Assembly (NCBI GenBank): GCA_049999805.1
Contig: JBNGIO010006382.1
Span: 220,234-284,233 of the forward strand
Direction: 5' to 3'
Length of the DNA stretch: 64,000 nucleotides
Source: Folioceros fuciformis
Taxonomy: Eukaryota
The notes below the pieces were generated by a model. That model did no database searches and was not told the origin of the DNA. It worked only from the letters and a program-made list of their open reading frames with translations. Positions 3,205-51,441 of this stretch are shown here, one piece after another. The number at the start of each line of letters is the position of its first letter. Within the stretch, counting starts at the first letter, position 1. The translations under genes were made by a program, and so were the position numbers.

Positions 3205-3230
3205 CGCGGTCACGTGGCGCCAATCATTGG
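3205..3230. promoter_or_regulatory. G-box (CACGTG) and CCAAT motif in the divergent FTHFS/RPE intergenic region
   Basis: GTCACGTGGC at 3209-3218, followed by the palindromic CCAATCATTGG. Lies in the ~710-bp spacer between two head-to-head genes. Function inferred from motif only. Confidence 0.35.
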
Positions 3231-3520
3231 CTCGGTCTGTTGAAATTGCTGAAATTCTAAGAAAACGTAGATAATGGATGGCCACAGCAGCAGACACAGC
3301 TTGGGAAGCCAAGCCACTCAATGTTGGAGCCAAGTTTTGTGCGGTTCTCCTCGACGCGCCAGTTTACAAAGGCTCTCAGCGTGTACATGGTCCGTGGAGA
3401 CGAGTGACTCGACAGGACCACGACTCATTAGCGACACAAGACGAGTTTGAGACAGGACGAGACGTCTCGACGGACCAGATTCGCGACTGAATAGGTTGCG
3501 CATCGGCAAGGACTGCGGCC

Positions 3521-6721: not shown

Positions 6722-7931
6722 GGCCACCGTCTTGTATGCAATCGAAGATTCCGTGCTCAGAGTGTGCGCAGGGACTGCATTTATAAGAACAGTGAGGGAG
6801 TCTCGAGCAATCCAGAAGCTGTACCTAAATTGCCGATTGCCTTCCCTCCAGCTGCTGCCGAGATATATGCAGCCAATGAACGCCGGCCGGTGCTCAATCG
6901 TCTACCCGACACCTCGCTCCCGCTGCCCAAATATTCGTCGCCCCGGCAGAAACCAACCGGAGGTGCTTTCTTGCGTATTTTCCTTCCTTCACCCCACCCA
7001 GTTTCCAGTTTCCGATTTCCAGCTTCCGAACCTGTAAGCTTCGGGCCGAAGCACTTCGGCTCGGCTCGCAAGGGACGTGGTCCCGGGAGCTTGGCTTTTT
7101 CTCTACTCCTCTGTGTTACGTGGTGTGATGCGGGATTGCTCGCAGGCCACACAGCCTGCACAGCGCAGCCGAGGGCTTGCAGGCTGGGTGCGGTTGCGGG
7201 GGAATTCCTGGTTTCCATTCATGTGTTTGGGAGCGGTGTTGGAGAGGATGCTGGAGACGGTCGCTTGTTTCTGCGCTCCGTTTGTGGCAGAGGAGGTGCG
7301 CTGGTGGCTGGGATTGTTCTCTTGCGCCAGGCGGTGACGGAATCCTGGTAGTCGAGGAGGAGGAGAAGCGCAGGGTTGCCATGGTGTCCGATCTGGAGGA
7401 CCGAAGGTTGCGTGCCCCGGCAGGGACTTCTTGTTGTTAACTTGCGAAGGTCTCAAGGGCTTTTGGAGTGAGGATGATAAGAAATCCTTTGTTTTGCTTC
7501 GAGGTTAGTTAAAGGAAGGGGTGGCGTCTCGGAGTGATTGGCTGACTGTGTCTCTGTCGGGAACGTCCTTGCCTGATGGTTGTGTGGAGGTCGTAGATAG
7601 GGGCCGTGTTTCCGTTTTTGCCTGTGCTTCCGTTTCTGCCTGTGCAGGGATGTGGGACAGGTGTCTTGAGTCGTTCTATGCATGGATATCGCAGCCAGTG
7701 TGCTTTTGCATAGTAGGTCAGCTTTTTGGTAGCGTTGTGTGAAGACGTCTACTCTTGTTGCCTATGTCTGTTAGTTGTTCAACTCCAGTGCGGATGTTTT
7801 TTCTCGTGAGGTAGGGGCTGACATGAGGTCAGTGTCCTGTGGACAGATTTATCTCGAATGAGGGAGGCAGCAGACCAGTCTCAGAATCTGGTGGCAGTCA
7901 GCAACGTTAACCGGGTTCCATCTGAGGAAAC

Positions 7932-35782: not shown

Positions 35783-37672
35783 ATGGAGAAGAAGGCTACG
35801 GCGGCCAAGGGAACCAGCAGCAACATGAACAAGTTCAAGGTGTGCGGCTGCTTCAGCCTGCGGTTCAAGATGGGAGTCCTGGCAGCGCCCGAGAAGGTGC
35901 AGCAGATCTTTGACAAGTACGCGGAGAGGGGGGTGCTTACGCCGGCTGGCCTGCAGCGCTTCCTGGCCGCGGAGCAGCAGGAGGAGGTGACCCTGGAGGA
36001 GGCACAGCGTCGGTTGGATCAGTCCTTCACCTCCCGCGTGGGGATCTTCAACAAGCTGCACGGACACGCGCACGCTCTGAATCTGGACGACTTCCTGCAT
36101 TTTCTGCTCTCCCCGCAGCTCAATGGAGCCTACGGCACGGAGGTGCACCACGACATGACGCTCCCGCTGTCTCATTATTACATCTACACCGGCCATAACA
36201 GCTACCTCACCGGCAACCAGCTCAACAGCGACTGCAGCGAGGTGCCTATCATAAAAGCACTCAAGCGCGGGGTGCGCGTCATCGAGCTAGATCTGTGGCC
36301 AGACGACTCTAACACCAAGATCCAGGTGCTGCATGGCAACACGCTCACCAAGCCCGTGGATTTCGAGCGCTGCATCGTGGCCATTAGGGATAACGCGTTT
36401 GTGGCATCCGATTTCCCAGTCGTCATCACCTTTGAGGATCACCTCACGCCAGAGCTGCAGGAGAAGGCGGCGAAGCAGACCACGGCCATCCTCAAGGACC
36501 TGCTTTACATCCCCCCCGACGAGGAGAGCTTCCAGGAGTTTGGCAGTCCGGTGTCGCTCCGCCGACGCATCCTAATATCCACCAAGCCCCCGAAGGAGTA
36601 CCTTTCTTCGGGCAAGCTGGAGACGAAGTCGTCCGGGCAACAGCAGCAGCAAAAGCCGCAGACCAACGGGCACGCCGGGAAGTGCAAGCAGCAGGAGGAG
36701 GATGAGGAGCCGTGGGGGGAGGAGGTACCGGACTTCGATGGCCAGGTCGGGGAGGTGGGGAATGCCGAGGAGGCCGGGGTGAAGCTCTCTGAATCCGCCA
36801 TTATGTCCAGCTTGGACGAGCAGTCGCAAGTGGATCAGGCGCCGGCGCCGGGTTACAAGCATATCATCGGGATCCGGGCAGGGAAGAAGAAAGGAGGATC
36901 CACGAAGGACGCGCTGGGAGTGGAGGGCGCGGTACGCAGGGTTAGCCTGAGCGAGCCGCAGCTGGAGAAGGCGGTGCAGGACTACGGGCATGTGGTGATC
37001 AGGTTCACGCAGAAGAATTTGCTACGGATCTTCCCCATGGGAATCAGGTTCAACTCCTCCAACTACAACCCGCTCATTGCGTGGACGCACGGCGCGCAGA
37101 TGGTGGCCTTCAACATGCAGGGCTATGGTCGCCCGCTGTGGCTGGTGCATGGCTTCTTCCGCGCCAATGGCGGGTGCGGATATGTGAAGAAGCCCGACCT
37201 CTTGCTGAGCACGAAGGCGGAGGTTTGGAATCCGCGGAAGCCCGGGCCTCCGCGGCTGCTGCTCAAGGTGACGGTGTACTTAGGGTGCGGCTGGTATGAG
37301 AAGTTTGGGCGCACGCATTTCGACTCCTTCTCGCCCCCGGACTTCTATGCGCGAGTGGGGATTGCGGGCGTGCAGGCGGACACCCGCATGCATAAAACGC
37401 GCACAATCGAGGACGACTGGCACCCAAAGTGGGAGGAGGAGTTCGACCTGCCGCTCACCACCCCAGAGTTGGCCTTGCTCCGGGTTGAGGTGCACGAGTA
37501 CGACATGTCTGATAAAGATGATTTTGCAGGACAGACTTGTATTCCTGTGCCCGAGATCAGACCTGGATACCGAGCTGTGCAACTCTACGATAAGAAGGGC
37601 TTCGAGCTCACGGGAGTGAGGCTTCTGATGCACTTTCGACTTGTTGATCTTGGGCTACCCATTCCTGCATAG
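35783..37672 (+). CDS. PLC: Phosphoinositide-specific phospholipase C, single exon (alternative in-frame ATGs at 35759 and 35825)
   Basis: EF-like N-terminus; X box HDMTLPLSHYYIYTGHNSYLTGNQL, GVRVIELDLWP, ITFEDH, ILISTKPPKEYL; Y box SSNYNP/GAQMVAFNMQG/NGGCGYVKKP; C2 domain PPDFYARVGIAG...DDFAGQTC. Confidence 0.97.
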   Translation: MEKKATAAKGTSSNMNKFKVCGCFSLRFKMGVLAAPEKVQQIFDKYAERGVLTPAGLQRFLAAEQQEEVTLEEAQRRLDQSFTSRVGIFNKLHGHAHALNLDDFLHFLLSPQLNGAYGTEVHHDMTLPLSHYYIYTGHNSYLTGNQLNSDCSEVPIIKALKRGVRVIELDLWPDDSNTKIQVLHGNTLTKPVDFERCIVAIRDNAFVASDFPVVITFEDHLTPELQEKAAKQTTAILKDLLYIPPDEESFQEFGSPVSLRRRILISTKPPKEYLSSGKLETKSSGQQQQQKPQTNGHAGKCKQQEEDEEPWGEEVPDFDGQVGEVGNAEEAGVKLSESAIMSSLDEQSQVDQAPAPGYKHIIGIRAGKKKGGSTKDALGVEGAVRRVSLSEPQLEKAVQDYGHVVIRFTQKNLLRIFPMGIRFNSSNYNPLIAWTHGAQMVAFNMQGYGRPLWLVHGFFRANGGCGYVKKPDLLLSTKAEVWNPRKPGPPRLLLKVTVYLGCGWYEKFGRTHFDSFSPPDFYARVGIAGVQADTRMHKTRTIEDDWHPKWEEEFDLPLTTPELALLRVEVHEYDMSDKDDFAGQTCIPVPEIRPGYRAVQLYDKKGFELTGVRLLMHFRLVDLGLPIPA

Positions 37673-38033
37673 GAAGCTTGAGCATCTTCACGAGACTACT
37701 TTAGTTGCGTGAATCCTCTCTCATTCTCGCCTCGCTTGTTTTATTCACCTTTGATGCATGACTGATTTGCGAAAGGAAGTGGCAAGTGGTGCCAAGCTCA
37801 TGAAATGACAGGCTTACCATGTGATGCCACCAATTGTGCCTCCGCTTCCAATTCTTTCCCTTCAAAGGTCACTGAAGTCCAAGAAGTAATCTATCTACAG
37901 TTTTGCAGTTGTGCCCACATCGAGAGACACTCTCGCTCCACAAGAAACTCAGCATCTCAATGCTCTCTTCTGCCTATAGTACATATTGAGCGGGAGCGCG
38001 CCTGCCAATCTCTTCACAGCGCTGCCATTCTCC

Positions 38034-39453
38034 TTACAGCGCTTTCTTCGATTGTTTCGCCGGTGCCAATCTCTCAATGGGGTCCCTCAGAGTGCCAAAC
38101 ATCCAATCCATCCAGATTGTGTAGTGACCGTAATTGTGCCTGTAGGTAGTGTGATGGATGGTGTGATAGCCTGCACCCATGACTCCCCACACCTGCCCAT
38201 CGATACAGTCGTGGATATTGGTTGTCCACACTCCTTCCAGAAACATCAAAAGCTCGTGCGTGAAGAGATGCGTGGGAATCATGAAGAGTGCAACCACATG
38301 TGGAGCCGCCTGTAATATGCCATCCAGAGGATGAAATGCCAAGCCTGTTCACAGGGATCCAATACTCACAGATGAGGCCTAACAGGTTGCATCCGGAGCT
38401 GACGGGGTGAGTGAAGTTGCAAACGGCAACACATACCTGCAAAGGGAGAAAGTGTGTTCTGCTTGTTGTAAATGTGGTGAGTCGCGTGTAAGCTTTTGTA
38501 CAGAGGCTTGATGTCATGCAACAGTCTGTGCATCCAATAAATTCCGAACTCTATGAAGATCAAGTACGCGGCGCACAAGGCAGCGTATCTGAGCACACCA
38601 ACTTCCTCCACCCGGGCATAGCATCGTGTCCAGCCCTGTTCGATCATGTACTCTGACAATGTAGGCAAACCACTATACATTGGCATGGCCTGCATTGTGA
38701 CATAAATCTGAAGGAGAACAGGCTCCTTCGATGGTATCCCACCTGCACAAAAGACAAGAAACACTTTGCTGCCATTAATCATGCAGCAAAAAACAGCAAA
38801 ACCTCCAACAACTCAGGCCCCTCCTTCCCATTCCAAAAAACCTAATATCCGAAGCCCAAGGCAGGCTATCGAATACTACGGAACACAAAACCTGACCAAA
38901 ACGACGCACACCCAGAGTCTCCTTGCCACATCCGCCACCAACCCCAGCATTCCCGACGCCGGCACACAGGAACCAAATTCTGCAGAAATGCAACCGACTC
39001 ACCAGCGGGGAAATACACATCCCCCTTCAGGTAATAGACGTAGAGGCACCACAACCCGCCAGTTGCGAAGTAGACGAACAAGCCAGCAACGTAATTCCGC
39101 AGCCAAGACTCGAGCACATGAGGCAACGCCTGGCGCCATCTGGCGGGCAACCACGGTCCCAGAACCAGATCATTGTACCACTGCGTCTCCTCCAAGAACA
39201 GAGCCAGATACTCCCTACTCCCCTTCTTCTGGACCCTCCCAAGCCCGCTCAGCAGCGGATCTTGCGAGGGCAATGTCGAATTTAACCCTCCCAGCCCCAC
39301 CGGATGATGATGGTCCGAGTTCCTTGCCTGCGGCGCCGGGCTCGGCCGAGCGCTCTCCTCCACATTCTCACAAGCCACACCCAGCTTAGACACGGTAGTT
39401 GTGATGAGCCACAGCAGCGGCAGGGTTTGCGCAAAGCGCAGCAGATCCGCCAT
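38034..39453 (-). CDS. DWF7: Delta7-sterol C5(6)-desaturase. Exons 39453-39003, 38742-38437, 38344-38034
   Basis: EETQWYN, WLRNY, His boxes [47 protein letters not shown] and [16 protein letters not shown]. Confidence 0.95.
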
Positions 39454-39665
39454 GCCCGTCCGCAGCCTGGCCGCCTGTCTGCACTGCTGCCTGTGTGTCT
39501 CTTCCCTGATGTGGAATTCCAACGGTCACACTCGCAGCTCGCCCATCACACCCTTCGCTCGGATGGACACGGGTGATACGTGCTTATTCACGTAATGCTT
39601 TCCTGGGACCACATAGCACCCCCGCTTATCTTCCTCCTTCCATTCCACCTCCTCTATTACACAAA

Positions 39666-40930
39666 TACATACGTACATACACTTTGGTATGTATGTATGT
39701 GATAAAGCATAGCTTACACTGAATTGCCACCTAGCGGGTTAGGGCGGGCTTCAATTTTTTAAGGGTGCGCAATGATGGAATTAATGGCTCCTTAGATGCT
39801 AAGGAGTTTAGGGCTTCAATTTTTTAAGGTTGCTCAATGATGGAATTGACGGCTCCTTAGATGCTAAGGAGTTGTTTAATGTACTCTGCCACCAAGTTGC
39901 AGCTGCCACCAAGTTGTAGCCAATAGGAAGAACTGTGTCCCATGATGCACTCCTTGTGCAACACTTGGTTCTTGGGATCTGTACCTCCATGATAGCTTGT
40001 CTTAACTTCTCCTCTTCTTATACCTAGAACAGTTTGGTGGTCCTTCACTTTTAAGCTTGCATCCCCTCCACCTCATGTTGATCCCTTAGCCCTCTCCTTT
40101 GTTGACTCCTTTTACCCTGGTGCCTTTGGGAAAACTTCCTAGTGCTAGATGGCTCAGCAAGTGAGTTTGCCCACATACTCTTTTGAAATCTATTCTGGTT
40201 GGAGGAGATGCTCCTATNNNNNNNNNNCCACATACTCTTTTGAAATCTATTCTGGTTGGAGGAGATGCTCCTATCTTAGTTTTTGGGTGTTCTGACTAGA
40301 TGATTGCTTTGCTCCTGTCTTAGTTTTTGGGTGTTGGATTTTCTGACCAGGTGATTGTTTCGTTGACCATGGAAATTTGTCCACTTCGAAATGTATTAGC
40401 AAATAACATGGACATGTTAGGACTTGGTTTTTGGTTTTTGGTTTTCACTGCTTAGGTGCCATGGATCTTCCATTCCAGCCAGAAATCCATGCCAATGATG
40501 TCCCTTTTGGAGTTGATGTCCCTTTTGGAGTTGATGAAGGGGGGATAGAGGGGCTGCCCCACCGGTAGCTCGCCCTGAGTGTGTTCAGCAAGCCAGGATG
40601 TCCACTTGCTTGGTGTGCTTGGGACATTCCTGCTAATTGTTCTAATGTGATGCATTGATTCGTGTATTGCTGATAACTTGATGATGAGCAAGACAATTAA
40701 CAGAGCTATGACAAGATCTCTGGGCTGAATTTTTTTATATTGGGTGAGTGCCTGTAACCACACCAAGCCCATGTTTGTAACTCCATGAGTGTGAATTATA
40801 GCTTTATGAGTGCTCTAATACTAGCACTCTACGTGATCCAAGGTCTCCCTCTCACCTCATACATAAGCCAAGGTTAATGAGTGTGTGAGGCAATTGGCAA
40901 GCCATGATGGCTTGTATATATACACATACA
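39666..40930 (+). repeat. Direct repeat copy 1 (~1.25 kb; includes a small gap with an artefactual duplication)
   Basis: Colinear with 45069-46317 from ACTTTGGTATGTATGTATGTGATAAAGCATA to CATGATGGCTTGTATATA. Confidence 0.92.
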
Positions 40931-42672
40931 AGTATGTCTTGTGGTCAATCTGGCACCTGATCAGCTTACCACTCATCCCTTCGGTTTATTTCTCACTTGA
41001 ATTATTGGAGTGTGGCAAGATGAGACCGTTTGGGATATGGATCTGATGGCATTGGGCTACCCTGGAAATTCTGGTGGAATTGTTCCCTCCCCAGCAGTGC
41101 AAGCTATCATTACTGCAGTGGATGATCCCGCTTTCCATCAAACCGTGATCCGTCATGATAAAGAAGCAATGCAAGATTTGTACGATCGATGGTACTCCAT
41201 CTCAATTGATGGATGTACTTGCACTTGATGATTGGGTAAAGCTGGCTTGTGCCTTTGCTGAGGATTCTAACGTGGGGATGGAGAAACTTCTCAAGGAGTG
41301 CAACGTGGGGATGGAGAAACTTCTCAAGGTGCACTCCTTGCTTCCTAAGTTTCTGGAATCAGATGAACAAAAAACTGAGGAACTTGATGGTCTACGTGCT
41401 ATAATAGCTAAGGCACTAAACATGTCCATGACTGACCGCACCCCGGCACCATGCTTCAAAGATGATGGCTTCTACTACCCTTTAGCTTCCAAGAAAGGCT
41501 CTACTACCACCAGAATGAAAGAACAGCGATGCAAGAACAATGTCCCATTCCTATCATTGCTCCACGGGATCTAGAAGCCGAGCTTGCAAAATGGAACCAC
41601 AAAATGTGGGTGGCTTCAAACTTAAGCTTTCTTGCTCCTATCAGCATATGAACTTGGCATCTGTTTGGCAATCTTTCTGACAGGGATGTAGACGCTTGCA
41701 TGGAACGTGCACTTTCTGGAAATATTCTACTTGCCAACAGCATCAGGGTGGCTGCAAGCCCCCGTATCACACAGTTTGATATACCCTGTAAGTATAATCA
41801 AACAATTGCTGTGAGATCTAAAGGCATGATGCAAACTGGCAATTTCAGGAGAGAAGGCACTCATGGACGCACCTTGTGGAATTGGAACCGGCCATTTGCA
41901 AAATGCATCTGTACATAGGCTTGTGTTCCTGAAAATGTCCCAACTGATGCCGCAAAATGCGACCCTGGGGTGTTTGTGGTTTGATCACATGATTTGGTTT
42001 AAGGCTAACCATCTCAACATTTTCTTCCCAGATGTCTCCATCTCTGAGCATGCGATGTAGTGCCTTTTTGGTCTTCCTCTTCTTGCAGGCAAATAGAGAA
42101 CTGATTAAAGCCCAGGTCTCATTCATATTTATCCATGAATGGATGATTAAAGCCAGGAAGCAACTCGCTAGGGATCCAACTCAATCCTTACTTGCTGACA
42201 TGGGCAACATGGCTGGGCCGTTATACATTGAAAAGCTGTTGAAACCAGCAGCCTTCACAGAGGCCAGCAATCAAAAGGATCACGTACTCAACTTCCGCCC
42301 TAAACCCTGCTTTAATAGATCAAGGGATGCCATGGGAATGGAACAAGTTTGAGTTGCCCGTCGACGTGGAAGTTGCAGGCTGCAATTGACACTATACCGG
42401 GGCGGTGCGAGAGGGTTCTTCACCCCTAGCAGACCACCAAGAGTTCCACCTCTCGACTCACCGGATACTTCGCGTCGTCGTCCCCTAGCACTTCCGTTGG
42501 CTCTGGTCCCTCTTCAAGAACCACTGCATCTGGTGGCACGTCTGGCTCAATTACGCAAGAGACTGTGTCTTCCAACAGAATTGTGTCTCGATATGATCCT
42601 GCTTTTGGAAGACCAGACTTATCTACTGAGTGGTAATGGATGATACAGTAGCTGAATGTCCATTTTTCTTAT

Positions 42673-44960
42673 GTGTTGGTCTGGACAGACTCTTTGGATG
42701 CGCCCTCGAATGGAACCTCTCGCAGTGTGCAAATTGATGCATTGGGACGTTGCTATTTGTTAACCCAAAAGGAGACCTCAGTTCTTGGTTTTGTCCATCT
42801 ACTATATGCTAACAAAGCCTTTGAATGGATCTCTCCCCGTAATCTTTTCAGATCTGTTTTGGAAGATTGTGAGGAAGAAGTGTTAGTGGATTTTGATCTG
42901 ATTGTCTTTGGCTGGAAATACATGGAGAACATCTCTAAGACTCTGTACTATCCCAAGGATGTCTTCACGGGCTTTGATGTTTCTAACCATGCAAGTATAC
43001 CAAACGGCTTCTCCCTTTTATAGATCAAGCCATAGCTTCGTCAAGGGATCCCTCCTCTCTACATGTCCGGACTATGTGCTTGGATATCCTACGACATCCT
43101 CATCTACGCACTTGTGTTAGCAAAGGTCTAAACCACATCCCACTCCACCCTTACCAGAATACAACCAGTAGTAGATGCCCTTGGTATTGCCTTTGTAAAA
43201 GTCATTGAGATTCTTCAAAAATGTGGACACTACTTCCAAACTGAGTGGATTGATCATTGCAAAACTCAGCTAACAGAATTGTGTTGGTTCCATCTGAAAA
43301 CTGCTGTCAAACGCAATAAGAGACGGCAGCTGCACCAAAGGCATGTCCTTGAAGAACCTTCTGTCAATGATGAAATTTCCTGGTTATTGCAGCACCTGTA
43401 TGTCTCTGGCCTTGACAAAGCTACTCACACTACTTTTTTCATCTGCAAGAGACACATAAGGCAACAAGCATTGGTAAGGCTGTCCAGTCTGGATTTTAAA
43501 GCCCTCTCTATGTCTCCACAGCTTGCTTAGGATTGATCCAACAAGAGATTTCTCTTCTTCTTCCAGAACGAGAGAATGATATGGAGTTGGGCCTCCCATA
43601 CCTAATGGCCACCTTCAAACAACACAAGCTGAAATATAGATGGCTGACCAATGATCATAACTGTTGCTTCTCTGTTGTAGCTGATTTATTAACTATGGCC
43701 AAAAAAGCTATGTTCCCCATTTTGAAAGAATGGGCTGCAATCCTACAAGACACGTACTACAGGTTCTTTAAGGTACGTACTTCCTTGTATTGGATTACAT
43801 ACTTAACTTTAGAAGTGGCTTTAAACCTACCAAACAAGGTGCATGACCTATTTGTGGCAGATATTGCACGTTGCTATGAGGCAATCCCTACTCGTGGGGA
43901 AGATGCACTCAAAACTGCTATTTTGGCTAACATTGGCTTGGCTTTTAAGCAAGTGAACAAGACACGTACAGCACAGCAGCAACTATTTCTGCATGTTCGT
44001 TTTGATCACAGCTCTTCTCAATTCACACATGCGTCTTGGGCAAGTAAGGCCCCAAGCGGCTCCAATTCTTTCTACCTGTCTTTCACATCAGAGAGGTTGA
44101 GTGCTATCTACTGCTGGCTTATGCAACATTGCTATGTCCAGTTTGGTAATATTGTATGGCTGCAACAACTGGGAATACCGATGGGGTTCTCATGCTCCCC
44201 CCAATGGTGTAATCTATATTTTTTTCACTATGAAGCACAATTTATTCGTAGATTAGCTAGGCTTAGAAGACCTGACCTTATGGCCCTGTTTGAACATGCT
44301 CACATTTATATGGATGACATGTGCTGGTTTAACACCAAAATCCCCAACAAATTCTTGGACCCGGCTACACCAAGGACCCCAGATTCACCATTCTGGATTT
44401 ACCCTTTGGATATAGTGGCTATTGAACCCAAGATTGAAAAGTTTGGAGAGGATTTGGAAGGTAACTAGATCGGGGTTGCTGCTCACTTCTTATCTTTTCA
44501 GTTTACTATCAAAGATCCTCTATGTGGACAGTTTTCTTACACCAAGTACGACAAAAGAAGAGCACTCCCCTTCCAATTTGCGCAGTTCATTCACTTGGAG
44601 TCCAACAGATCTGTCTCCCAAGCATACAAGGTTATTGTTTCACAAGTTTTTCCTCTGCTATACATCTGTTCCATAGCTGAGGCTGCTGTACATGAGATTT
44701 TGCTACTGGTCCACACCTTTGTGGCTAATGGCTTCNNNNNNNNNNTACATGAGATTTTGCTACTGGTCCACACCTTTGTGGCTAATGGCTTCCAAGAAGC
44801 AAGGCTGTTTAAAATTATTACCAGGTTTTTGGAACAAATCTCTTTCCCTAGGCTTAGAGTGGTCAAGGAGGACATTCTCGTAATGCTTGTTTCTCCAACG
44901 TCTTCCACTCTTCCAAGCCCAAGTTGTGGTATTCCCACCCACACTAGCTCCTCACCATAA
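42673..44960 (+). pseudogene. Penelope-like reverse transcriptase, Chlamys/Naiad-type (frameshifts and stops)
   Basis: YANKAFEWI; HVRTMCLDIL..PHLRTCVSKGLNH; LDKATHTTFFICK; LPYLMATFKQHK..YRWL; ADIARCYEAIP; QQLGIPMGFSCSPQWCNLY; YMDD. After an in-frame TAG (44466): HFLS...KYDKRRALPF..QFIHLESN...AYKVIVSQV. Confidence 0.85.
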
Positions 44961-45068
44961 GTTTCTCCTAGTGCTAAAAAACATCCTGGTGCTGTGATGT
45001 GCATCCTGCTAAGGGCTATACACATTGCAGTCACCTTAGTATTTCAAGCACATCGGGTTGGTGGAGGG

Positions 45069-46317
45069 TACATACATACATACATACATACACTTTGGTA
45101 TGTATGTATGTGATAAAGCATATGTAGCGGGTTAGGGCTTTAATTTTTTTAAGGGTGCGCAATGATGGAATTAACGGCTCCTTAGATGCTAAGGAGGTTA
45201 GGGCTTCAATTTTTAAGTTTGAGCAATGATGGAATTGACGGCTCCTTAGATGCTAAGGAGTTGTCAACGTACTCTGCCACCAAGTTGAGCTCTGCCACCA
45301 AGTTGTAGCTAGTAGAAAGAACTGTGTCCCATGATGCACTCCTTATGCAATACTTGGTTCTTCTTATGCAATACTTGGTTCTTGGGATCTGTACCTCCAT
45401 GATAGCTTGTCTTAACTTCTCTTCTTATACCTAGAACAGTTTGGTGGTCCTTCACTCTTAGCTTGCATCCCCTCCCCCTCCTGTTGATCCCTTAGCCCTC
45501 TCCTTCGTTGACTCCTTGTCACCTTGGTGCCTTTGGGAAGACTGCCTACTGCTAGATGGCTTAGCAAATGAGTTTGCCCACATATTCTTTTGAAATCTAT
45601 TCTGGTTGGAGGAGATGCTCCTATCTTAGTTTTTGGGTGTTCTGACCAGATGATTGCTTTGCTCCTGTCTTAGTTTTTGGGTGTTGGATTTTCTGACCAG
45701 GTGATTGCTTCGCTGACCAAGGAGATCTGTCCACTTGGAAATGTATTAGCAAATAACATGAACATGTTAGGACTTGGTTTCTAGTTTTTGGTTTCACTAC
45801 TGCTCAGGTGCCATGGATCCTCCATTCCGGCCAGAAATCCATGCCAATGATGTCCCTTTTGGTGCTGATGAAGAGGGGATAGAGGGGCTGTGTGTACAGC
45901 AAGCCAGGATGTCCACTTGCTTGGTGTGCTTGGGACATTCCTGCTAATTGTTCTAATGTGATGCTAATTGTTCTAATTTGATGCATTGATTCGTGTACTG
46001 CTGATAACTTGATGATGAGCAAGACAATTACCAGTGCTATGACAAGATCTCCGCGCTGAATTTTTGATATTGGGTGAGTTTTGATATTGGGTGAGTGCCT
46101 GTAGCCATACCAAGCCCATGTTTGTAACTCCATGAGTGTGAATTATAGCTTTATGAGTGCTCCGATACTAGCACTCTACGTGATCCAAGGTCTCTCTCTC
46201 TCTCTCACCTCATACATAAGCCAAGGTTAATGAGTGTGTGAGTCCTCATAAGAGGCAATTGACAAGTCATGATGGCTTGTATATACATACATACATACAT
46301 ACATACATACATACATA
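45069..46317 (+). repeat. Direct repeat copy 2, ending in a (TACA)n tract
   Basis: See copy 1. (TACA)n at 45069-45091 and 46284-46317. Confidence 0.92.
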
Positions 46318-46366
46318 GAGACTCCTCTCTCTCTTGTCGCACTCGGCGACTGGGTCGTGCGATTTT

Positions 46367-46508
46367 CACTTCCTCCCCCACCAACTAACTATACACACCC
46401 AAACCAAAAAAATCGCACTTCCTCTCCCACCAACTAACTGTACACACCCAAACCAAAAAAGTCGCACTTCCTCCCCCACCAACTAACTATACACACCCAA
46501 ACCAAACC
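46367..46508. repeat. 49-bp tandem repeat, ~3 copies
   Basis: CACTTCCTCCCCCACCAACTAACTATACACACCCAAACCAAAAAAATCG starts at 46367, 46416 and 46465. Confidence 0.9.
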
Positions 46509-46858
46509 ATCTCTGCCTTTGCCAAATCCCACAAAACAAGCCTGAATAATTATAATTATTATAATCATAAAACCAAAACTAATAGTTGAAACTTCGCATT
46601 CGGAGGACAGGAGTTTGTTCTTGCTCATTTTCTTCTTCAAGACCTTATAGAAGTGAAGTTGCCTGCCAAGTGTTTTGTCCTTCCTTGGCACTTATAAGTA
46701 AGTGTTTTGATGGTAGAGGAGGATCTAATTTTATGCTTTCTTAAAACAGTCCAACTAATGTATAACTAAATTAACTTCTTACAAATGAAATACTAAATAA
46801 AATAAAGCTTTTCCTTTTTCTAAGGAATCAAAGTTTTAAAGATCCATCTTTTGTGCTG

Positions 46859-49624
46859 CTATGGCGGCAGGTTCACATGCGGGAGGTAGTCTCCTTCCTT
46901 CAATTTCGAGACTACCTGCTTCAGCATTGAATATATACCTTCGCTCTCCTCATGGTTCTGATCCCCGACCAAGAAAGTGTGTACCATTCCGTCCATGTCT
47001 GTCCACCAGCTCTGGCCTGGCTGCTTCCAGGCTCCCCTTCCTTTTCTCCTTACCTGCATCTCCTGGGCCTCCTCCCACATCTGCACGCTGGTGTAGATGT
47101 TTGACATCAACACATATGGCGCTGAATCGTTTTCGTCTAGCTTCACTACTTCATCGAATGCGTAGCGTCCGACCTCCACGTTACTCCACTTCTGACAAGC
47201 ACCCAGTAGTGTCCGCCAAACTGCAGCATCGGGAATTGCTGGCATTGTCCTGGCCAATGCTAGTGCCTCGTCCAGTTCGCCCGCACGGCCCAAGAGATCC
47301 ACCATGCAGGCGTAGTGCTCCATGGTAGGAGTGATTCCCTGGTCTTTTGTCATGGATTCGAAGTACTCTCTTCCCTTGTTCACTAGACCCGCATGACTGC
47401 ACACTGTCAGCACACTCAGTGATATGACGCCATCAGGCTGGAGGCCATCATCCCCTTCCATCCTGCGAATTAAGTCAAAAACCACTTCACTGTCTCCTTG
47501 ACGGCTGTATCCTGCAATTAGTGCAGACCACGAGACGATGTCTCGTTCGGGCAGTGCCTCAAATACCTGCTGTGCAGCAAGCATGCTCCCACACTTTGCG
47601 TACATGTTGATCAAACCAATGGCTAGGACAGTTTGCAACTTTTGTTCTTCGATTTGTGCATGGAGTTGCCTTCCCAGACGCAAGGCTGCCACATTCGCAC
47701 ATGCCTGCAGGAGGCACACGTATGTTACGGTGCTAGGCTCCAGGTTTCCCTCGTCCTGCATAGCCCGGTAGAGTTGAATGGCTTCCTGTCCCATGCCCAA
47801 TTGGGAGTATCCTGCTATCATGCTATTCCAAGTCACCACGTTTTTGCGACCTAGCCTGCGAAACACGACCCGAGCATCGTCCAAGCTGCCACACTTCACA
47901 TACATGTTCACCAAGCTGTTCGCCACAGCCACATCACCATGAAGCCCTTGCTCTCCGATCAGTGCGTGAAGCTGCTTTCCCTTCCCCAAAGCTGGTATAC
48001 CCACACTTGCACATGCCTGTAGAAGGTACACAAAAGTTACAGAATCAGGTGCAGCGAGGCCTTCTTGTTGCATCGCACTGTAGAGATTAAGCGCTTCCTG
48101 GCCCATACCTTGCTGGGAATATCCGGCAATCAGAGTAGTCCATGTCACCACATTTTTGAGAGGAAGCCTGTCAAACGCGCCTTGAGCGTCATCCAAGCTG
48201 CCACACTTTGCATACATGTGGACCAAACTGTTCCCCACGGACACATCAGCGTGAAGTCCCTGTCGCCGAATCTGTGCATGCAGCTGTTTCCCCTGGTCCA
48301 GAGCTGAAGAGCCCACACTTGCACATGCTTGCAGGAGGCACATGAAAGTCACAGAATCGGGTGCAGAAATACCATCCTCATGCATGGCAGTGTAGAGGCG
48401 AAGTGCTTCCTGGCCCATGCCCTGCTGGGAATATCCTCCTATCAGAGCAGTCCACGTCACCACATTCTTTTGATCAAGCCTATCAAAGACCCCTTGAGCA
48501 TCCTCCACGCTGCCACATTTTGCGTACATATTCACCAGACTGCTACCTAGAAGAACATCTGTGTGAAGCCCTTGTTCTCCGATTTGTGCATGCAGCTGCT
48601 TACCCTTCTCCAAAACAGTGGTACCCACACTTGCACAGGCCTGCAGCAAGGACACAAATGTGACGGAATCAGGTGCAGAAATTCCTTCTTGCTGCATAGC
48701 GCTGTAAAGACGAAGGGCTTCCAGCCCCATGCCCTGCTGGGAATATCCTGCTATCATGGCGTTCCATGTCACCACATCCTTGCATGGAAGCTCGTCGAAC
48801 AGCCTTTGAGCAGTTACCAAGCTCCCACATTTGCAATACATGTCCACCAAGCAATTCCCAACGAACAAGTCAGATTCAACTCCACAGGACAGCACATCAG
48901 CATGCACCTGCTGCCCACTTTCCAAGTCTCCTGCCCTTGCACAAGCCTGAAGCGCTCCTACAAACACATGGCCATCTGGCTTCACACACGATTTCCGCAT
49001 CTGCTGATAGAGCTGTATGGCATGCTTTGCCTGCCCATGCTTCACATGAGCCGTTATTATGGAAGACCACATGAAGGCATCTGGATTGGCAACCACGGTG
49101 AACACATCCATCGCTTCTTGCAACCTGCCATGAGAGGCATACATTCTCAGGATGTGGTTGCACAGAAACGTGTCCGACTCATACCCTATCCCCACACAGA
49201 GAGCATGCACACGGCGACCCAAAACGAGATCCTTTCTACAACCATGTGTTTTCAAGACAGCAAAAAACAGAGACGACGAAGTACGGCAGTCCATCTGCAC
49301 CAGAACTCCCAGAGCCTCAACAGCTTCCCTGACCTTCCCGTGCTGGCATGATTCGCTCACAGTTCCAGCCGTCACGTCAGGCCTGCGATCATCCGGCAAG
49401 CTCCATGTCGGGGCACGGCGCCCCATGCGCATGTCCAGAGCGGCCACAACCCAACCCCGCCTATTGGACTTGTTCACCCAGAGGGTCTCCTGGGAAACCC
49501 TGTGCAGGAAATCTTGCGAGCCACGGGAGGTCTGTCGATGTCGCCTGGCACCCAACCCAACATTTGGTACAGTAAAGATCGTGGCCACAAGACATCCTGG
49601 ACCCGAGTCTTCCCGGAAACACAT
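46859..49624 (-). CDS. PLS-class pentatricopeptide-repeat protein with E1/E2 and a truncated WW-variant DYW (E+); probable organellar RNA-editing factor
   Basis: Repeated P-L-S motifs (VVTWNAMIAGY, PDSVTFVSLLQAC, GNSLVHMYAKCGS); HYACMVDLLGRAG; WRTLLGAC; YVLMSNIY; KQPGQSWWTD..VHTFLVGD..H. Stops before HxE/CxxC. Start codon uncertain. Confidence 0.93.
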   Translation of the reverse strand: MCFREDSGPGCLVATIFTVPNVGLGARRHRQTSRGSQDFLHRVSQETLWVNKSNRRGWVVAALDMRMGRRAPTWSLPDDRRPDVTAGTVSESCQHGKVREAVEALGVLVQMDCRTSSSLFFAVLKTHGCRKDLVLGRRVHALCVGIGYESDTFLCNHILRMYASHGRLQEAMDVFTVVANPDAFMWSSIITAHVKHGQAKHAIQLYQQMRKSCVKPDGHVFVGALQACARAGDLESGQQVHADVLSCGVESDLFVGNCLVDMYCKCGSLVTAQRLFDELPCKDVVTWNAMIAGYSQQGMGLEALRLYSAMQQEGISAPDSVTFVSLLQACASVGTTVLEKGKQLHAQIGEQGLHTDVLLGSSLVNMYAKCGSVEDAQGVFDRLDQKNVVTWTALIGGYSQQGMGQEALRLYTAMHEDGISAPDSVTFMCLLQACASVGSSALDQGKQLHAQIRRQGLHADVSVGNSLVHMYAKCGSLDDAQGAFDRLPLKNVVTWTTLIAGYSQQGMGQEALNLYSAMQQEGLAAPDSVTFVYLLQACASVGIPALGKGKQLHALIGEQGLHGDVAVANSLVNMYVKCGSLDDARVVFRRLGRKNVVTWNSMIAGYSQLGMGQEAIQLYRAMQDEGNLEPSTVTYVCLLQACANVAALRLGRQLHAQIEEQKLQTVLAIGLINMYAKCGSMLAAQQVFEALPERDIVSWSALIAGYSRQGDSEVVFDLIRRMEGDDGLQPDGVISLSVLTVCSHAGLVNKGREYFESMTKDQGITPTMEHYACMVDLLGRAGELDEALALARTMPAIPDAAVWRTLLGACQKWSNVEVGRYAFDEVVKLDENDSAPYVLMSNIYTSVQMWEEAQEMQVRRKGRGAWKQPGQSWWTDMDGMVHTFLVGDQNHEESEGIYSMLKQVVSKLKEGDYLPHVNLPP

Positions 49625-51441
49625 TTTCGTGAACGAACTGGTTTTCTTGCGAAGCCGGTACGTGCACTAGGCAGATGTCTGTTTGAGAGAGCCGGAAACA
49701 CACGCACATCGAGTAGAGAACTAGCTGTGCATGCTAAGAGGGCTGCACAATGCTCTCTTGGCTGCATCATGCTCTACTGCCTGCATCGTTCGGTGCGCTA
49801 TGAAACAACGACCTGGCCGTGAGAGGGTGTTGTCGAAGTGCCCGGTGTTGTAGAATTGAGCATCATCGCTCCGAAGTTGCTACTTGCGACGACCAGGAAT
49901 CCAGGATCATTCGTTCAAGGGAAGGATTTCGATCTGGACCAATGCCGGTCCAGGGGTTTACCGTTCAATGTTTCCTGCAACAGGAACCGCGTTCCCCTCG
50001 AGTAACACTTAGCTAGCTCTTACTACCACACCGTACACACCTCCAGGACTCGAGGGATGCTCGATAGGCTCCACATAAGGTATTAGACACGAAGCACATA
50101 GGAGGTTTGAGTTCGTTGTTTAATAGCAGCGGGCCACGTGTATGAGGACAACAGCCCTCATGAACACCAGAGGCCGAGTGGGGGGGCCTACAGAAGGAGC
50201 ACATCGAGAGATTGCGAAAAGCTGATTAAAATCCGATCCAGACAGAAACGCTCGTAAGTAGATGACTTCGGGCTTAGCCGCTAGCTTGCGGCTCAAGAGA
50301 ATCTGACTTTACTGTGAGTGAAAAGTTCATGCACTCACCCGAGGGCACATGAGCTTCTGCAGGAAAGAAAACGCACTGTCGTCCTGACAAGAGTCATTAC
50401 CTCGGTTCCCTTGTGCAAGGGATGCTGACAGTGGACTACATTCGCCGAAACCTAACCCTTGCCTGCAGACGGACGCTGAGGCTAACGGTCTGTAGTGAGA
50501 TGTCCAAACGCCACCCGAGAATGAGTTTTTGCACACAAGACCCCAGACCAGGTCACTGTCTTCCACATAAATGGCTTGACCTTGCCTGCCTTCTACGGGA
50601 GATGTTGACAGTGGACTGCAGTCGCCTGCACCTAGCCCTAACCCTAAAATGCAGACAGTCGCTGAGACGAGCGGTCTGTTCCTTACCAACGGTACACAGC
50701 GAAGCCTTAAGCGCAATCAGACAGACCAGGACTCTACACAGAGCACAAGACATCCATAACACGGCGGAGTGAAACATTGTTCACAGGGATTAGACGCCTA
50801 CAGCAACTCTCTTCAGGTCAGGTCTCCATGTTCTTCCGCATTGCTGTAAAAGCACTCAGTAGAACGAAAGTATTGCTCATCACCAGAGAGGCACAGACAG
50901 ACGAAGCCATGGAACAAGACCGATTGGAACTATCGTCAGTAACAGAGTTCATCTCATCCACAGCATTGTCAAACTGTGTCCGAAGGTGTCCTAAGATTCT
51001 GTACTGTTCATCATCCGATAAGAAAGCTCCTCAACCCCACCGGCGAGAGAACGACCAGCTCTAAAGGTTAGGCAAAGCACGCCTGCCCGCTACAAGCAAC
51101 GGCTACACAAGTACTCCGTGGCGTGAAGAAACCACAGTCGTAGCACAAGGGCAGACAAGAGACGCCAGAAGCAAGACGCAACGAAAAGGGCACGCCAGAC
51201 GCAACGAAAAGGGCACGCCAGACGCCACAGCAATGCAGGAATGGCTAAATTGAGGTCACCACGGTACTATTTATAATCGCGAGATGAAGTTTCTCTAGAA
51301 AATAAGAAATGGAAAACCCATCTATTTCGATCCATACTTGTGGAAATGATCTAGAACTAAGTACATACGTATTTCGATATCATGCATTACTGTTGGTTTA
51401 TTTGTGTAGTCTTAGGTCTGCGATTTAGGTCTACGGGGGCG

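What the first reader, a model, noticed from the sequence alone, without database searches (positions are those of the whole stretch)
39666..46317. Penelope-like (telomerase-related) RT with no visible endonuclease, between 1.25-kb structured repeats and joined at (TACA)n
Seen: the order is (TACA)n-repeat A-(TACA-like)-4.1-kb RT-bearing segment-(TACA)n-repeat A'-(TACA)n. The RT has PLE motifs (DKA..ICK, K.HK, GIPMG..SP..CNLY, YMDD, YDKR..PF...H..SN) and the N-terminal NK/HV.T..L.I...LR...KG block I associate with the Chlamys/Naiad clade. I find no GIY-YIG motif on either side, and no gag, IN, RH or PBS. Known: PLE RTs are sister to telomerase RT, form pseudo-LTRs by partial tandem insertion, and Chlamys elements associate with microsatellites; PLEs are patchy in land plants. 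Inference: an undescribed microsatellite-targeting PLE family. Repeat A is either its pLTR or a separate non-autonomous RNA partner that stacks at the same (TACA)n sites. This copy is decayed, so the endonuclease may simply be unreadable.
Basis: partly seen in the sequence, partly recalled or inferred. Interest (0 to 1): 0.8.

Follow-up and report, generated by a model that had tools for sequence, protein, structure and literature searches.

The report
Decayed endonuclease-less Penelope-like retrotransposon copy
This is a broken copy of a rare, telomerase-related plant retrotransposon that has no DNA-cutting enzyme; the type was described in 2021, but its relatives share a conserved end structure next to a simple repeat, which may hint at how they insert.

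Summary
Window 39658-46317 carries two 1.2-kb direct repeats, A and A', which are 94.8% identical. They flank a 4.1-kb coding segment. (TACA)n arrays sit at three of the four junctions and nowhere else in the 64 kb.

The RT is telomerase-like by fold. Its family groups beside the Selaginella 'PLE-X' proteins of Craig et al. 2021, which are Chlamys-related Penelope-like elements without GIY-YIG.

The missing endonuclease is not an effect of decay. No GIY-YIG was found in 45 relatives scanned.

It has a CxC...C/WFDH motif and is homologous to the PLE-X N-terminal extension.

Repeat A is most likely part of the element (a pseudo-LTR). In intact metagenomic relatives a 0.9-2.4-kb non-coding spacer holds the same place, and contigs close on themselves as tandem units.

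Two results go beyond the paper. A G-rich box abuts the microsatellite downstream of the RT in the window and in 11 relatives. No hammerhead ribozyme core was found.

Verdict: a new member of a known kind, of moderate interest. The insertion mechanism is inferred, not shown.

The parts
39658..39701 (+). Left (TACA)n/(TGTA)n hairpin microsatellite, the first bases of repeat A
   Evidence: (TACA)4-like matches lie only at the element's junctions. A 15-bp hairpin is predicted, z = -4.1.
39658..40930 (+). Repeat A, the upstream pseudo-LTR or spacer copy. It is non-coding and has internal 65-bp x2 and 17-18-bp x2 tandem repeats.
   Evidence: 94.8% identical to A'. Tandem repeats. It holds the place of the spacer between microsatellite and ORF1 seen in relatives.
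40218..40227 (.). 10-N scaffold join inside A, flanked by an exact 47-nt duplicate (40171-40217 repeated after the Ns)
40914..40935 (+). Degenerate TACA-like stretch at the junction between A and the coding segment
   Evidence: Read. It is too degenerate to match (TACA)4 with up to 2 mismatches.
40971..42439 (+). Decayed ORF1 in frames 3/1/2 with stops. It is homologous to the 550-590-aa ORF1 of the relatives. The KCIC motif starts at 41901 and WFDH at 41977.
   Evidence: tblastn of five ORF1s from L001-L006 against the window, E down to 4e-27. Motif places. The ORF1 family aligns to the Selaginella P0077 N-terminus by hhalign, probability 87.8%, E = 3.3e-6.
42718..44960 (+). Decayed ORF2, a PLE-type RT. 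Frame segments: 42718-42975 (frame 1), 42987-43172 (frame 3), 43159-43497 (frame 1), 43527-44960 (frame 3). TAG at 44466-44468. Motif starts: DKA 43414, motif A 43857, GIPMG 44172, YMDD 44307, YDKRR 44547.
   Evidence: Family model pLDDT 95.1, and TERTs are the best fold matches.
44736..44745 (.). 10-N scaffold join inside ORF2, flanked by an exact 47-nt duplicate. The 57 nt removed if it were collapsed keep the reading frame.
45060..45068 (+). G-rich box GGTGGAGGG, 100 nt after the ORF2 stop and directly abutting the microsatellite
   Evidence: The same or a similar box stands before (CT/TC)n in 11 of 11 relatives that have such a run downstream of the RT.
45069..45118 (+). (TACA)n/(TGTA)n hairpin microsatellite at the start of A'
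45069..46295 (+). Repeat A', the downstream pseudo-LTR or spacer copy
46283..46317 (+). Perfect (ATAC)8.8 microsatellite at the right end of the insertion

Best explanation
Window 39658-46317 is one old, inactivated insertion of an endonuclease-less Penelope-like retroelement of the 'PLE-X' type. PLE-X elements are Chlamys-related and are sister to the Selaginella PLE-X families.

Unit structure. A unit has a non-coding region of about 1.2 kb (repeat A), then ORF1, then ORF2.
- ORF1 carries a Cys/His motif (CxC-x8-C...WFDH). In intact relatives it also has an RGG-rich tail, so it is probably an RNA-binding protein.
- ORF2 has an N-terminal CxC domain, then a TERT-like RT with an insertion-in-fingers-sized segment and a thumb.
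- About 100 nt after the ORF2 stop comes a short 3' module: a G-rich box followed directly by a microsatellite.
- The window holds one unit plus a second copy of A. That is the partial-tandem 'pseudo-LTR' arrangement typical of PLEs.

Shown:
- the anatomy;
- the homology of both ORFs to relatives;
- the TERT-like fold;
- the absence of GIY-YIG in intact relatives;
- the tandem or closing units in relatives;
- the conserved junction between G-box and microsatellite.

Inferred:
- With no nuclease of its own, the element starts reverse transcription on pre-existing 3'-OH ends in simple-repeat DNA.
- The microsatellite stretch of its RNA next to the G-box pairs with the repeat. This would parallel how Athena/Coprina PLEs are thought to use telomeric overhangs.
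- Template switching or read-through then gives the tandem A-unit-A' structure.

This copy is dead. It has at least 3 frameshifts and stops in both ORFs.
For: Homology of ORF2.
- The 322-aa ORF has 81 relatives at E<=1e-3. The best are at 41-48% identity (unnamed metagenome or assembly proteins of about 700 aa). Five S. moellendorffii proteins are at 35-39%.
- P0079 begins with the 36 residues encoded by the 'PLE-X1_sMoe' row of Craig et al. File_S2/S1 (my own translation). The Selaginella relatives are therefore the published PLE-X.
- In a quick IQ-TREE the window groups with 46 unnamed proteins (SH-aLRT 97). That clade groups with the 5 Selaginella rows (SH-aLRT 83).

Fold.
- The family model has pLDDT 95.1.
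- Foldseek ranks 1-15 are all TERTs, E = 5e-10 to 3e-5.
- VIA-align gives TERTs Z = 13.4, 13.3 and 11.7 over 393-455 residues, against LINE-1 at 9.5 and R2 at 9.0.

No endonuclease. Pfam GIY-YIG was found in none of these sets:
- 0 of 15 relatives;
- 0 of 30 relatives;
- 0 of 9 window pieces;
- 0 of 5 ORF1s;
- 0 of 7 ORF2 N-termini.

ORF1.
- Five relatives encode a 489-593-aa ORF1 upstream of ORF2.
- Remnants lie in the window at 40971-42439.
- The family aligns to the N-terminal extension of Selaginella P0077 across the CxC...C motif.

A belongs to the element.
- L006 shows ORF2, G-box, (CT)n, a 2.4-kb spacer, ORF1 and ORF2 on one contig.
- L001 and L002 close on themselves: 123-nt and 117-nt terminal repeats, units of 6608 and 5395 nt. 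L014 and L015 are permutations of one 4108-nt unit.
- An exact 16-mer is shared by the spacers of L001, L002 and L006.
- The sequence after the microsatellite is conserved between independent contigs.

G-box.
- 11 of 28 loci have (CT/TC)n of 4 or more units downstream of the RT. In all 11 the preceding 12-mer has 6-9 G.
- The binomial probability per site is 0.012 at the loci's G content.
- 0 of 6 control CT runs in the window reach 6 G.

Multi-copy family in the source organism. Up to 9 variant contigs lie at A positions and up to 6 at RT positions.
Against: - No other copy from the same genome could be read, because no genome is held. The true termini, target sites and copy structure are therefore not established.
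- A' is not followed by ORFs. If the unit's 3' end is the G-box plus microsatellite, A' would be a 3'-truncated unit, which target-primed reverse transcription does not normally give.
- Repeat A has no detectable sequence similarity to the relatives' spacers. The conserved 16-mer is absent from the window even with 3 mismatches.
- L014/L015 carry two diverged A-like modules per RT, each ending in a G-box and (TC)n. Modules that move on their own would give the same picture.
- Summed contig depth is higher over A than over the coding part. The tool warns that this is not a copy number.
- Published PLE-X families carry canonical hammerhead ribozymes. None was found here.
- The tree is a quick search, the window row sits on a long branch (1.35), and no reference set of Penelope, Neptune, Athena, Coprina or TERT sequences could be included.
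- The priming mechanism is pure inference.
Confidence: 0.7

Rival explanations
1. Repeat A is a separate non-autonomous element, moved in trans by the PLE RT. It stacks at the same (TACA)n sites on both sides of an independent 4.1-kb RT element.
For: - Microsatellites bound A on both sides.
- A' is not followed by ORFs.
- Summed contig depth and the number of variant contigs are higher over A (up to 9) than over the RT part (up to 6).
- In the distant relative L014/L015 two diverged A-like modules, each ending in a G-box and (TC)n, precede one RT.
- A 2026 preprint title and abstract link animal retrozymes to PLEs as non-autonomous partners (search listing only).
Against: - In 3 of 3 relatives where both sides can be seen (L001, L002, L006), a spacer of 0.9-2.4 kb lies in the same place inside one repeating unit. 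It carries a conserved 16-mer.
- Two independent insertions of the same element, in the same orientation and flanking one RT copy, are less parsimonious than a partial tandem.
- No hammerhead ribozyme was found in A, so it is not a retrozyme as described.
- Depth from contigs is not a copy number (warning).
Confidence: 0.2
2. The element does have its own nuclease, which sequence tools do not recognise. It could lie in ORF1 (the CxC-x8-C...WFDH region) or in the first 70 residues of ORF2.
For: - ORF1 has invariant Cys, His and Asp positions (C346, C348, C357, D365, H366 in L001 numbering).
- The low-confidence model places them on a strand-strand-helix element.
- Residues 1-70 of ORF2 are strands and helices that the fold searches barely tested (note).
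- Craig et al. state that how PLE-X integrates is unknown.
Against: - ORF1 has no Pfam or PDB sequence match, and neither does the ORF2 N-terminus.
- The ORF1 model is too poor to search (pLDDT 39.5).
- The Cys/His pattern together with an RGG tail fits a nucleic-acid-binding zinc motif better than a catalytic site (my inference).
Confidence: 0.08
3. The A...A' duplication is a scaffolding artefact of a short-read assembly.
For: - Two 10-N joins with 47-nt overlaps lie inside the feature.
- Contigs of the public runs break at the microsatellites.
- No listed contig bridges an A/unique junction beyond the hairpin.
Against: - A and A' differ at 60 of 1145 positions and by 21 indels. They are two different sequences, not one placed twice.
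- Both N joins have exact 47-nt overlaps, as expected for true neighbours.
- A contig of run X1 runs from the left flank into the hairpin (38911-39703).
- Relatives show the same tandem layout.
Confidence: 0.04

Closest known systems
EN-minus 'PLE-X' families of the Chlamys group (PLE-X1_sMoe, PLE-X1_sTam, PLE-X1/2_cBra; Craig, Yushenova, Rodriguez & Arkhipova 2021, PMC8557442; sections 9, 12, 15, 17 and File_S1/S2 read)
   Same: - No GIY-YIG.
- CxC motif before the RT, and a DK(A) motif.
- A long segment between RT motifs A and B.
- An N-terminal extension with CxC-x(1-8)-C; here it is ORF1, CxC-x8-C.
- Unit size of about 5.4 kb, against 5237-5718 bp for the Selaginella families.
- Microsatellite association: PLE-X1_cBra is listed with (CA)n.
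- The Selaginella proteins are the nearest named relatives.
   Different: - 35-39% identity to the Selaginella proteins, and a separate clade of at least 46 unnamed proteins.
- No hammerhead core was found, whereas the paper reports canonical HHRs for PLE-X.
- The element is not in 28S rDNA.
- ORF1 and ORF2 are separate frames in genomic DNA; an intron was proposed for Selaginella and was not tested here.
- A G-rich box abuts the microsatellite, and the passages read do not mention one. Supplementary figures S1-S10 are PDFs that could not be read.
Chlamys and Naiad N-terminal EN+ Penelope-like elements (same paper)
   Same: - CxC motif, DKA/DK motif and IFD-sized insertion.
- pseudo-LTRs formed by partial tandems.
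- Insertion bias for microsatellites, with (CT)n listed for some Chara Chlamys families.
- Usually no canonical HHR.
   Different: They carry an N-terminal GIY-YIG endonuclease. No relative scanned here does (0 of 45).
Athena and Coprina EN-minus PLEs at telomeres (Gladyshev & Arkhipova 2007; known here only through the introduction of Craig et al. and a review passage, because the paper itself is not held)
   Same: - They lack an endonuclease.
- They are thought to prime on exposed 3' ends by pairing a short repeat-complementary stretch near the 3' end of the RNA.
- This is the model borrowed here, with a microsatellite in place of the telomere repeat.
   Different: - They attach to telomeric repeats and have an adjacent HHR.
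- This copy is interstitial. It lies 39 nt from the 5' end of an RNA contig of a sterol desaturase gene, has no telomeric array and has no HHR.
- Its phylogenetic relation to them was not tested.
Telomerase reverse transcriptase (TERT)
   Same: - TERTs are the best structural matches, over residues of about 70-717 of the family model.
- A helix, strands and helix lie between motifs A and B, in the place of the TERT IFD (secondary structure).
   Different: - 11-14% identity.
- A profile search by sequence finds no TERT in the PDB at E<=1.
- It is a mobile, multi-copy element with its own ORF1 and no separate RNA template gene.
Stringent-type LINEs with a 3' stem-loop and a short-repeat tail, such as the eel UnaL2
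   Same: The 3' UTR hairpin directly followed by a short tandem repeat resembles the layout seen here: stem-loop, G-box, then microsatellite.
   Different: - A different RT class.
- Those LINEs encode an endonuclease.
- The resemblance is one of layout only.

Membership tests
PLE-X (EN-minus Chlamys-related PLE, Craig et al. 2021) | PLE-type RT with a DK(G/A) motif upstream of RT1 | tested here: met
   GLDKATH in the window (43414). D246, K247 and A248 are invariant in 64 relatives.
PLE-X (EN-minus Chlamys-related PLE, Craig et al. 2021) | CxC motif N-terminal of the RT | tested here: met
   C101 and C103 are invariant in 64 relatives. The window copy reads P-C-K-Y, with the second Cys lost (42987 onward), which fits decay.
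PLE-X (EN-minus Chlamys-related PLE, Craig et al. 2021) | No GIY-YIG endonuclease | tested here: met
   No Pfam GIY-YIG in 0 of 15, 0 of 30, 0 of 9, 0 of 5 and 0 of 7 sequences. The test was by sequence only. The fold of ORF2 residues 1-70 and of ORF1 was not tested.
PLE-X (EN-minus Chlamys-related PLE, Craig et al. 2021) | Unique N-terminal extension with a CxC-x(1-8)-C motif | tested here: met
   ORF1 of five relatives has RCxC-x8-C..IWFDH. hhalign to Selaginella P0077 gives probability 87.8% and E = 3.3e-6; the match to P0079 is only weak (probability 4%). Window remnants include KCIC (41901) and WFDH (41977).
PLE-X (EN-minus Chlamys-related PLE, Craig et al. 2021) | Canonical hammerhead ribozyme | tested here: not met
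   Rfam scans at E<=1 find no hammerhead in window 38500-47500 or in 12 loci. My scan for a CUGANGA...GAA core with a helix II of at least 4 bp gave nothing in window 39000-47000 or in L001-L006 and L012, and a single hit in L019. The paper's relaxed RNAmotif descriptors were not available.
PLE-X (EN-minus Chlamys-related PLE, Craig et al. 2021) | RT groups with the published PLE-X sequences in a phylogeny | tested here: inconclusive
   Sister to 5 Selaginella rows, including P0079 (= PLE-X1_sMoe), with SH-aLRT 83. The tree is a quick search, the window branch is long, and no Chara, Chlamys, Naiad or outgroup sequences were available.
Naiad/Chlamys clade feature | Insertion-in-fingers domain between RT3(A) and RT4(B) | tested here: met
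   About 103 aa lie between motif A (43857) and GIPMG (44172). The model shows helix 415-433, three strands, and helix 471-483 between motifs A and B.
Canonical EN+ PLE (Penelope/Poseidon, Neptune, Nematis) | C-terminal GIY-YIG endonuclease after the RT thumb | tested here: not met
   ORF2 of the relatives ends about 35 residues after the last conserved thumb helix. No GIY-YIG was found.
Athena/Coprina telomeric EN-minus PLE | Reverse-complement telomeric repeats plus an HHR at the 3' end, and a telomeric location | tested here: not met
   No HHR. The 3' module is a G-box plus (TACA)n or (CT)n. The copy lies between two genes. Phylogenetic relation was not tested.
Plant retrozyme (rival reading for repeat A) | Hammerhead ribozyme in each terminal repeat | tested here: not met
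   No hammerhead in A or A'.
LINE / LTR / DIRS retrotransposon | RT closest to those classes; APE or RLE endonuclease, RNase H or integrase present | tested here: not met
   TERTs outrank LINE-1, R2, Ty3 and HIV RTs in both fold searches. Pfam finds only a weak RVT_1 match.

The most novel reading that the evidence does not exclude
The simple repeat next to the conserved G-rich box is not just a landing site. It may be a working part of an endonuclease-independent, telomerase-like insertion cycle.

In this reading, the RT is TERT-like and has an IFD-sized segment. It binds the 3' stem-loop and G-box. It then uses the adjacent short repeat in its RNA to pair with, and perhaps reiteratively extend, free 3' ends in matching microsatellite DNA.

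The element would therefore both seek and seed microsatellites: (CT)n in most lineages, switched to (TACA)n in this plant. That would be a living intermediate between a transposon RT and telomerase.
Probability: 0.15. Interest if true: 0.8.

Novelty: new member of a known kind. Interest (0 to 1): 0.4.

Why it matters
Penelope-like elements are the closest mobile relatives of telomerase. How the endonuclease-less ones insert inside chromosomes is an open question, stated as such by Craig et al. 2021.

This window adds a land-plant member outside Selaginella. Through its relatives it also shows three things:
- The EN-minus PLE-X lineage is large: 278 representative proteins at E<=1e-30.
- The lineage consistently lacks GIY-YIG.
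- It shares a conserved 3' module of stem-loop, G-rich box and microsatellite. That module is a concrete handle for testing priming on repeat DNA.

For genome annotation, such elements have two ORFs and only a weak Pfam RVT_1 match, so they are easily missed or mislabelled.

Tried and rejected
- Own genome: none is held. No copy census, consensus or target-site survey was possible.
- Hammerhead ribozyme: no hammerhead in the Rfam E-value scans of the window region or of 12 loci. My core-plus-helix scan gave nothing in the window region or in 7 of the 8 loci; its single hit was in L019.
- ORF1 function:
  - No Pfam match.
  - No PDB sequence match better than E = 0.39.
  - The AlphaFold model is unusable (pLDDT 39.5 with 5 sequences), so no fold search was run on it.
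  - The ESM Atlas gave only unnamed clusters at 0.90, with low recognition.
- Relic GIY-YIG in the ORF2 N-terminus: profile searches of 7 N-terminal pieces found nothing relevant. The whole-model VIA search barely covers residues 1-80.
- Sequence profile of the RT family against the PDB: no TERT at E<=1. Only the fold searches show the link.
- RNA evidence: no RNA holder of the element is listed. The one RNA-guessed run (X3) has contigs on the two neighbouring genes and none over 39702-46674. This says nothing about expression.
- Contig depth as copy number: not usable, by the tool's own warning.
- Organism: the neighbouring sterol-desaturase exon is at most 70% identical to any named plant protein; moss, conifer, lycophyte and angiosperm proteins all lie at about 56-71%. 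The lineage stays unresolved beyond 'land-plant-like'.
- Intron joining ORF1 to ORF2: frame-compatible GT...AG pairs exist, but none is conserved across the relatives. Left open.
- Literature after 2021 on PLEs in bryophytes or ferns: four searches found only reviews that cite Craig et al. Gladyshev & Arkhipova 2007 is not held.
- Conserved spacer 16-mer ATGGGCACAGGTGAGG: absent from the window with up to 3 mismatches.
- 3' UTR hairpin of the window alone: z = -1.18, not significant.

Full report
**1. What is in the window**

- Repeat A (39658-40930) and repeat A' (45069-46295) are direct repeats. They are 94.8% identical over 1145 non-N columns, with 21 indels (ungapped blocks at 93-99%).
- The 4.1 kb between them occurs once in the 64 kb.
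- (TACA)4-like words occur 13 times in the window, against 0.03 expected. All lie at three sites: the start of A, the start of A' and the end of A'.
- The junction between A and the coding part has only a degenerate remnant.
- The arrays at the start of A and A' are followed by their own reverse complement and fold into 15-bp hairpins.
- Two runs of 10 N (40218-40227 and 44736-44745) are each flanked by an exact 47-nt duplicate. These are scaffold joins of overlapping contigs. The short duplications around them are artefacts, and the join in ORF2 keeps the frame.
- The differences between A and A' show that the large duplication is real sequence, not one repeat placed twice. No long read or bridging contig confirms the layout.

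**2. The coding part holds two decayed genes, not one**

ORF2, the RT, runs from 42718 to 44960 in frames 1/3/1/3, with an in-frame TAG at 44466.

Upstream, 40971-42439 matches the ORF1 of related elements. It lies in frames 3/1/2 and has stops.

**3. Relatives**

- The 322-aa RT ORF finds 81 proteins. About 75 are unnamed proteins of roughly 700 aa from metagenomes and assemblies, at 41-48% identity. Five are Selaginella moellendorffii proteins at 35-39%.
- An exhaustive profile search counts 4563 representative proteins at E<=1e-3 and 278 at E<=1e-30. The looser count probably includes other PLE clades.
- 28 metagenome loci were fetched.
- The close ones (L001-L006) carry an intact ORF1 of 489-593 aa. 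Then comes an ORF2 of about 756 aa, 15-290 nt downstream or overlapping in another frame.
- ORF1 has an invariant RCxC-x8-C..IWFDH block and an RGG-rich tail. It has no Pfam or PDB match.
- ORF1 aligns to the N-terminal part of Selaginella P0077 across the Cys motif: hhalign probability 87.8%, E = 3.3e-6. The match to P0079 is weak.

**4. Which kind of RT**

- A model of the ORF2 family built from 64 sequences has pLDDT 95.1.
- Foldseek against the PDB puts TERTs at ranks 1-15, E = 5e-10 to 3e-5. Group II intron RT follows at 1.5e-4, and no LINE appears among the rows printed (E up to 1.0e-3; some chains of entries already listed are left out).
- An independent all-against-representatives alignment gives TERTs Z = 13.4, 13.3 and 11.7 over 393-455 residues. 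LINE-1 ORF2p scores 9.5, Ty3 9.4 and R2 9.0.
- Between motifs A and B lie about 103 residues. They are modelled as helix, strands and helix, in the place of the TERT insertion-in-fingers domain.
- By sequence alone the family does not reach TERT in the PDB.

**5. The endonuclease is truly absent**

Pfam finds no GIY-YIG in any of these sets:
- 15 relatives;
- 30 further relatives;
- the 9 window pieces;
- 5 ORF1s;
- 7 ORF2 N-termini.

The intact ORF2s end shortly after the thumb. The folds of ORF1 and of the first 70 residues of ORF2 remain untested.

**6. This kind is in print**

Craig et al. 2021 (PMC8557442; sections 6, 9, 12, 15 and 17 read) describe EN-minus 'PLE-X' families within the Chlamys group.
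- The stated features are a CxC motif, no GIY-YIG, and a unique N-terminal extension with CxC-x(1-8)-C that is probably joined by an intron.
- They also report canonical hammerheads and 28S rDNA targeting in Selaginella.
- Their File_S1 lists PLE-X1_cBra with insertion preference (CA)n, and PLE-X1_sMoe at 5237 bp.
- The hammerhead row for PLE-X1_sMoe starts with nucleotides that I translate to the first 36 residues of P0079. The Selaginella relatives found here are therefore the published PLE-X.
- In a quick maximum-likelihood tree of 73 rows (none dropped), the window RT joins 46 unnamed proteins (SH-aLRT 97). That clade joins the five Selaginella rows (SH-aLRT 83). The window branch is long, and no outgroup or other PLE clade was available.

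**7. What repeat A is**

In the relatives, a non-coding spacer of 0.9-2.4 kb lies between a microsatellite downstream of ORF2 and the next ORF1.
- L006 shows this directly.
- L001 and L002 close on themselves, with 123-nt and 117-nt terminal repeats and units of 6608 and 5395 nt. The window spacing is about 5.35-5.41 kb.
- L014 and L015, from two samples, are permutations of one 4108-nt unit.
- The spacers of L001, L002 and L006 share an exact 16-mer.
- The sequence after the microsatellite is conserved between independent contigs.

The region that A occupies therefore belongs to the element in the relatives, which favours the pseudo-LTR reading.

Points against that reading:
- A has no sequence similarity to those spacers, and the 16-mer is absent from the window.
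- A' is not followed by ORFs.
- L014 has two diverged A-like modules per RT.
- A-like contigs look more numerous than RT-like ones (not a copy number).

I put the non-autonomous-partner reading at 0.2.

**8. A conserved 3' module**

- In the window, GGTGGAGGG (45060-45068) abuts the (TACA)n that follows ORF2.
- In L002 and L004 the same nonamer abuts (CT)n, and in L003 GGTGGTGGG abuts (TC)n. L001, L005 and L006 have GTGGGA, GGTGGGA and GGCGGGA there.
- Across all 28 loci, 11 have a (CT/TC)n run of 4 or more units downstream of the RT. In all 11 the preceding 12-mer holds 6-9 G.
- These include distant relatives at 21-28% amino-acid identity: L010, L014, L015, L022 and L024.
- The per-site binomial probability is 0.012. 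None of 6 control CT runs in the window reaches 6 G.
- The 17 loci without such a run are short, decayed or more distant.
- Just upstream of the box, each of two subgroups of relatives has a conserved stem-loop. L001, L005 and L006 keep it at about 90% identity where their ORFs are about 70% identical. In L002, L003 and L004, 8 of 32 predicted pairs change on both sides.
- The window's own 3' UTR hairpin is not significant.

The microsatellite thus sits at a homologous, defined place in the unit and travels with it. Only its motif differs in this plant.

**9. Where the unit ends**

This cannot be settled here.
- If the 3' end is the end of A, the window is a 5'-truncated copy (A) followed by a full copy (40936-46317). 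Each would end in a TACA tail, which is the usual PLE picture.
- If the 3' end is the G-box plus repeat, as the conserved module suggests, A' is the start of a second unit. Its ORFs would then have been lost, for example by recombination between (TACA)n arrays.

**10. How it most likely works (inferred)**

- ORF1 binds the RNA.
- The TERT-like ORF2 recognises the 3' stem-loop and G-box.
- With no nuclease, reverse transcription starts on free 3'-OH ends in simple-repeat DNA that pairs with the repeat stretch of the RNA. This parallels the proposal for Athena/Coprina at telomeres (introduction of Craig et al.).
- Template switching gives the partial tandems.

None of these steps is shown.

**11. 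State of this copy**

It is dead and old: frameshifts and stops in both ORFs, and 5.2% divergence between A and A'.

Contigs from other copies in runs of the same organism differ by 1-nt indels at 43151 and 43520. Those are the two intervals where this copy changes frame, so less damaged copies probably exist.

The copy lies between a Δ7-sterol-C5-desaturase-like gene and a PPR gene. The desaturase's RNA-guessed contig ends at 39619, which is 39 nt from the element.

**12. Verdict**

The element is a new family of a kind described in 2021. Three observations go beyond that paper: no hammerhead, the module of stem-loop, G-box and microsatellite, and a large unnamed clade. They deserve a specialist's look.

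Noticed in passing
window 46367-46513: A 49-bp unit repeated 2.9 times (94% matches) starts 50 nt after the right end of the element. It was not determined whether it is part of the insertion (a 'tail') or host sequence.
   Followed up: no
window 46859-49666 (- strand): An uninterrupted 935-aa pentatricopeptide-repeat ORF with a 312-nt internal periodicity. Contigs of the public runs pile up on it at summed depths of 700-7000 against about 11 for the unique flank, so it belongs to a very large gene family.
   Followed up: partly
window 37500-39619 (- strand): A Δ7-sterol-C5(6)-desaturase-like gene. Two introns (38344-38435 and 38740-38999, CT..AC on the + strand) are supported by one RNA-guessed contig that ends at 39619, 39 nt from the element. 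The best identity to any named plant protein is about 67-70%.
   Followed up: partly
L014 and L015 (whole loci): Two 4249-nt contigs from different samples are circular permutations of the same 4108-nt unit (99.6-99.8% identical, 141-nt terminal overlap). The unit has one 710-aa RT ORF, no long ORF1, and two G-box-(TC)n sites that bound two diverged copies of a roughly 310-nt sequence. It could be a tandem array or a circular molecule.
   Followed up: partly
L001 6365-6380, L002 505-520, L006 2204-2219: An exact 16-mer, ATGGGCACAGGTGAGG, lies in the non-coding spacers of three relatives from two subclades. It sits inside a block that is 90% identical between L001 and L006, where their ORFs are about 70% identical. 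It reads like a start codon followed by a 5' splice site, so it may be a mini-exon upstream of ORF1.
   Followed up: partly
window 39737-39815 and 45128-45205; L002 5476-5505: Single telomere-like words (GGTTAGGG, GTTTAGGG) lie just after the hairpin in A and A'. In L002 and L004 a hairpin AACCCTAA...TTAGGGTT lies after the (CT)n. These were seen by eye and were not tested against chance.
   Followed up: no
window 39630-39657 and 46318-46335: Both outer flanks of the insertion are CT-rich ('cttcctccttccattccacctcctct' on the left, 'ctcctctctctctt' on the right). A' also carries its own (CT)n-like run at about 46183-46200. The original target may have been a CT tract, which is the repeat that the relatives carry.
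   Followed up: no
proteins P0158, P0162, P0166: Some database relatives are fused to kinase, WD40 or LTR-type RNase H domains. These are most likely chimeric gene models across neighbouring genes or other elements.
   Followed up: no
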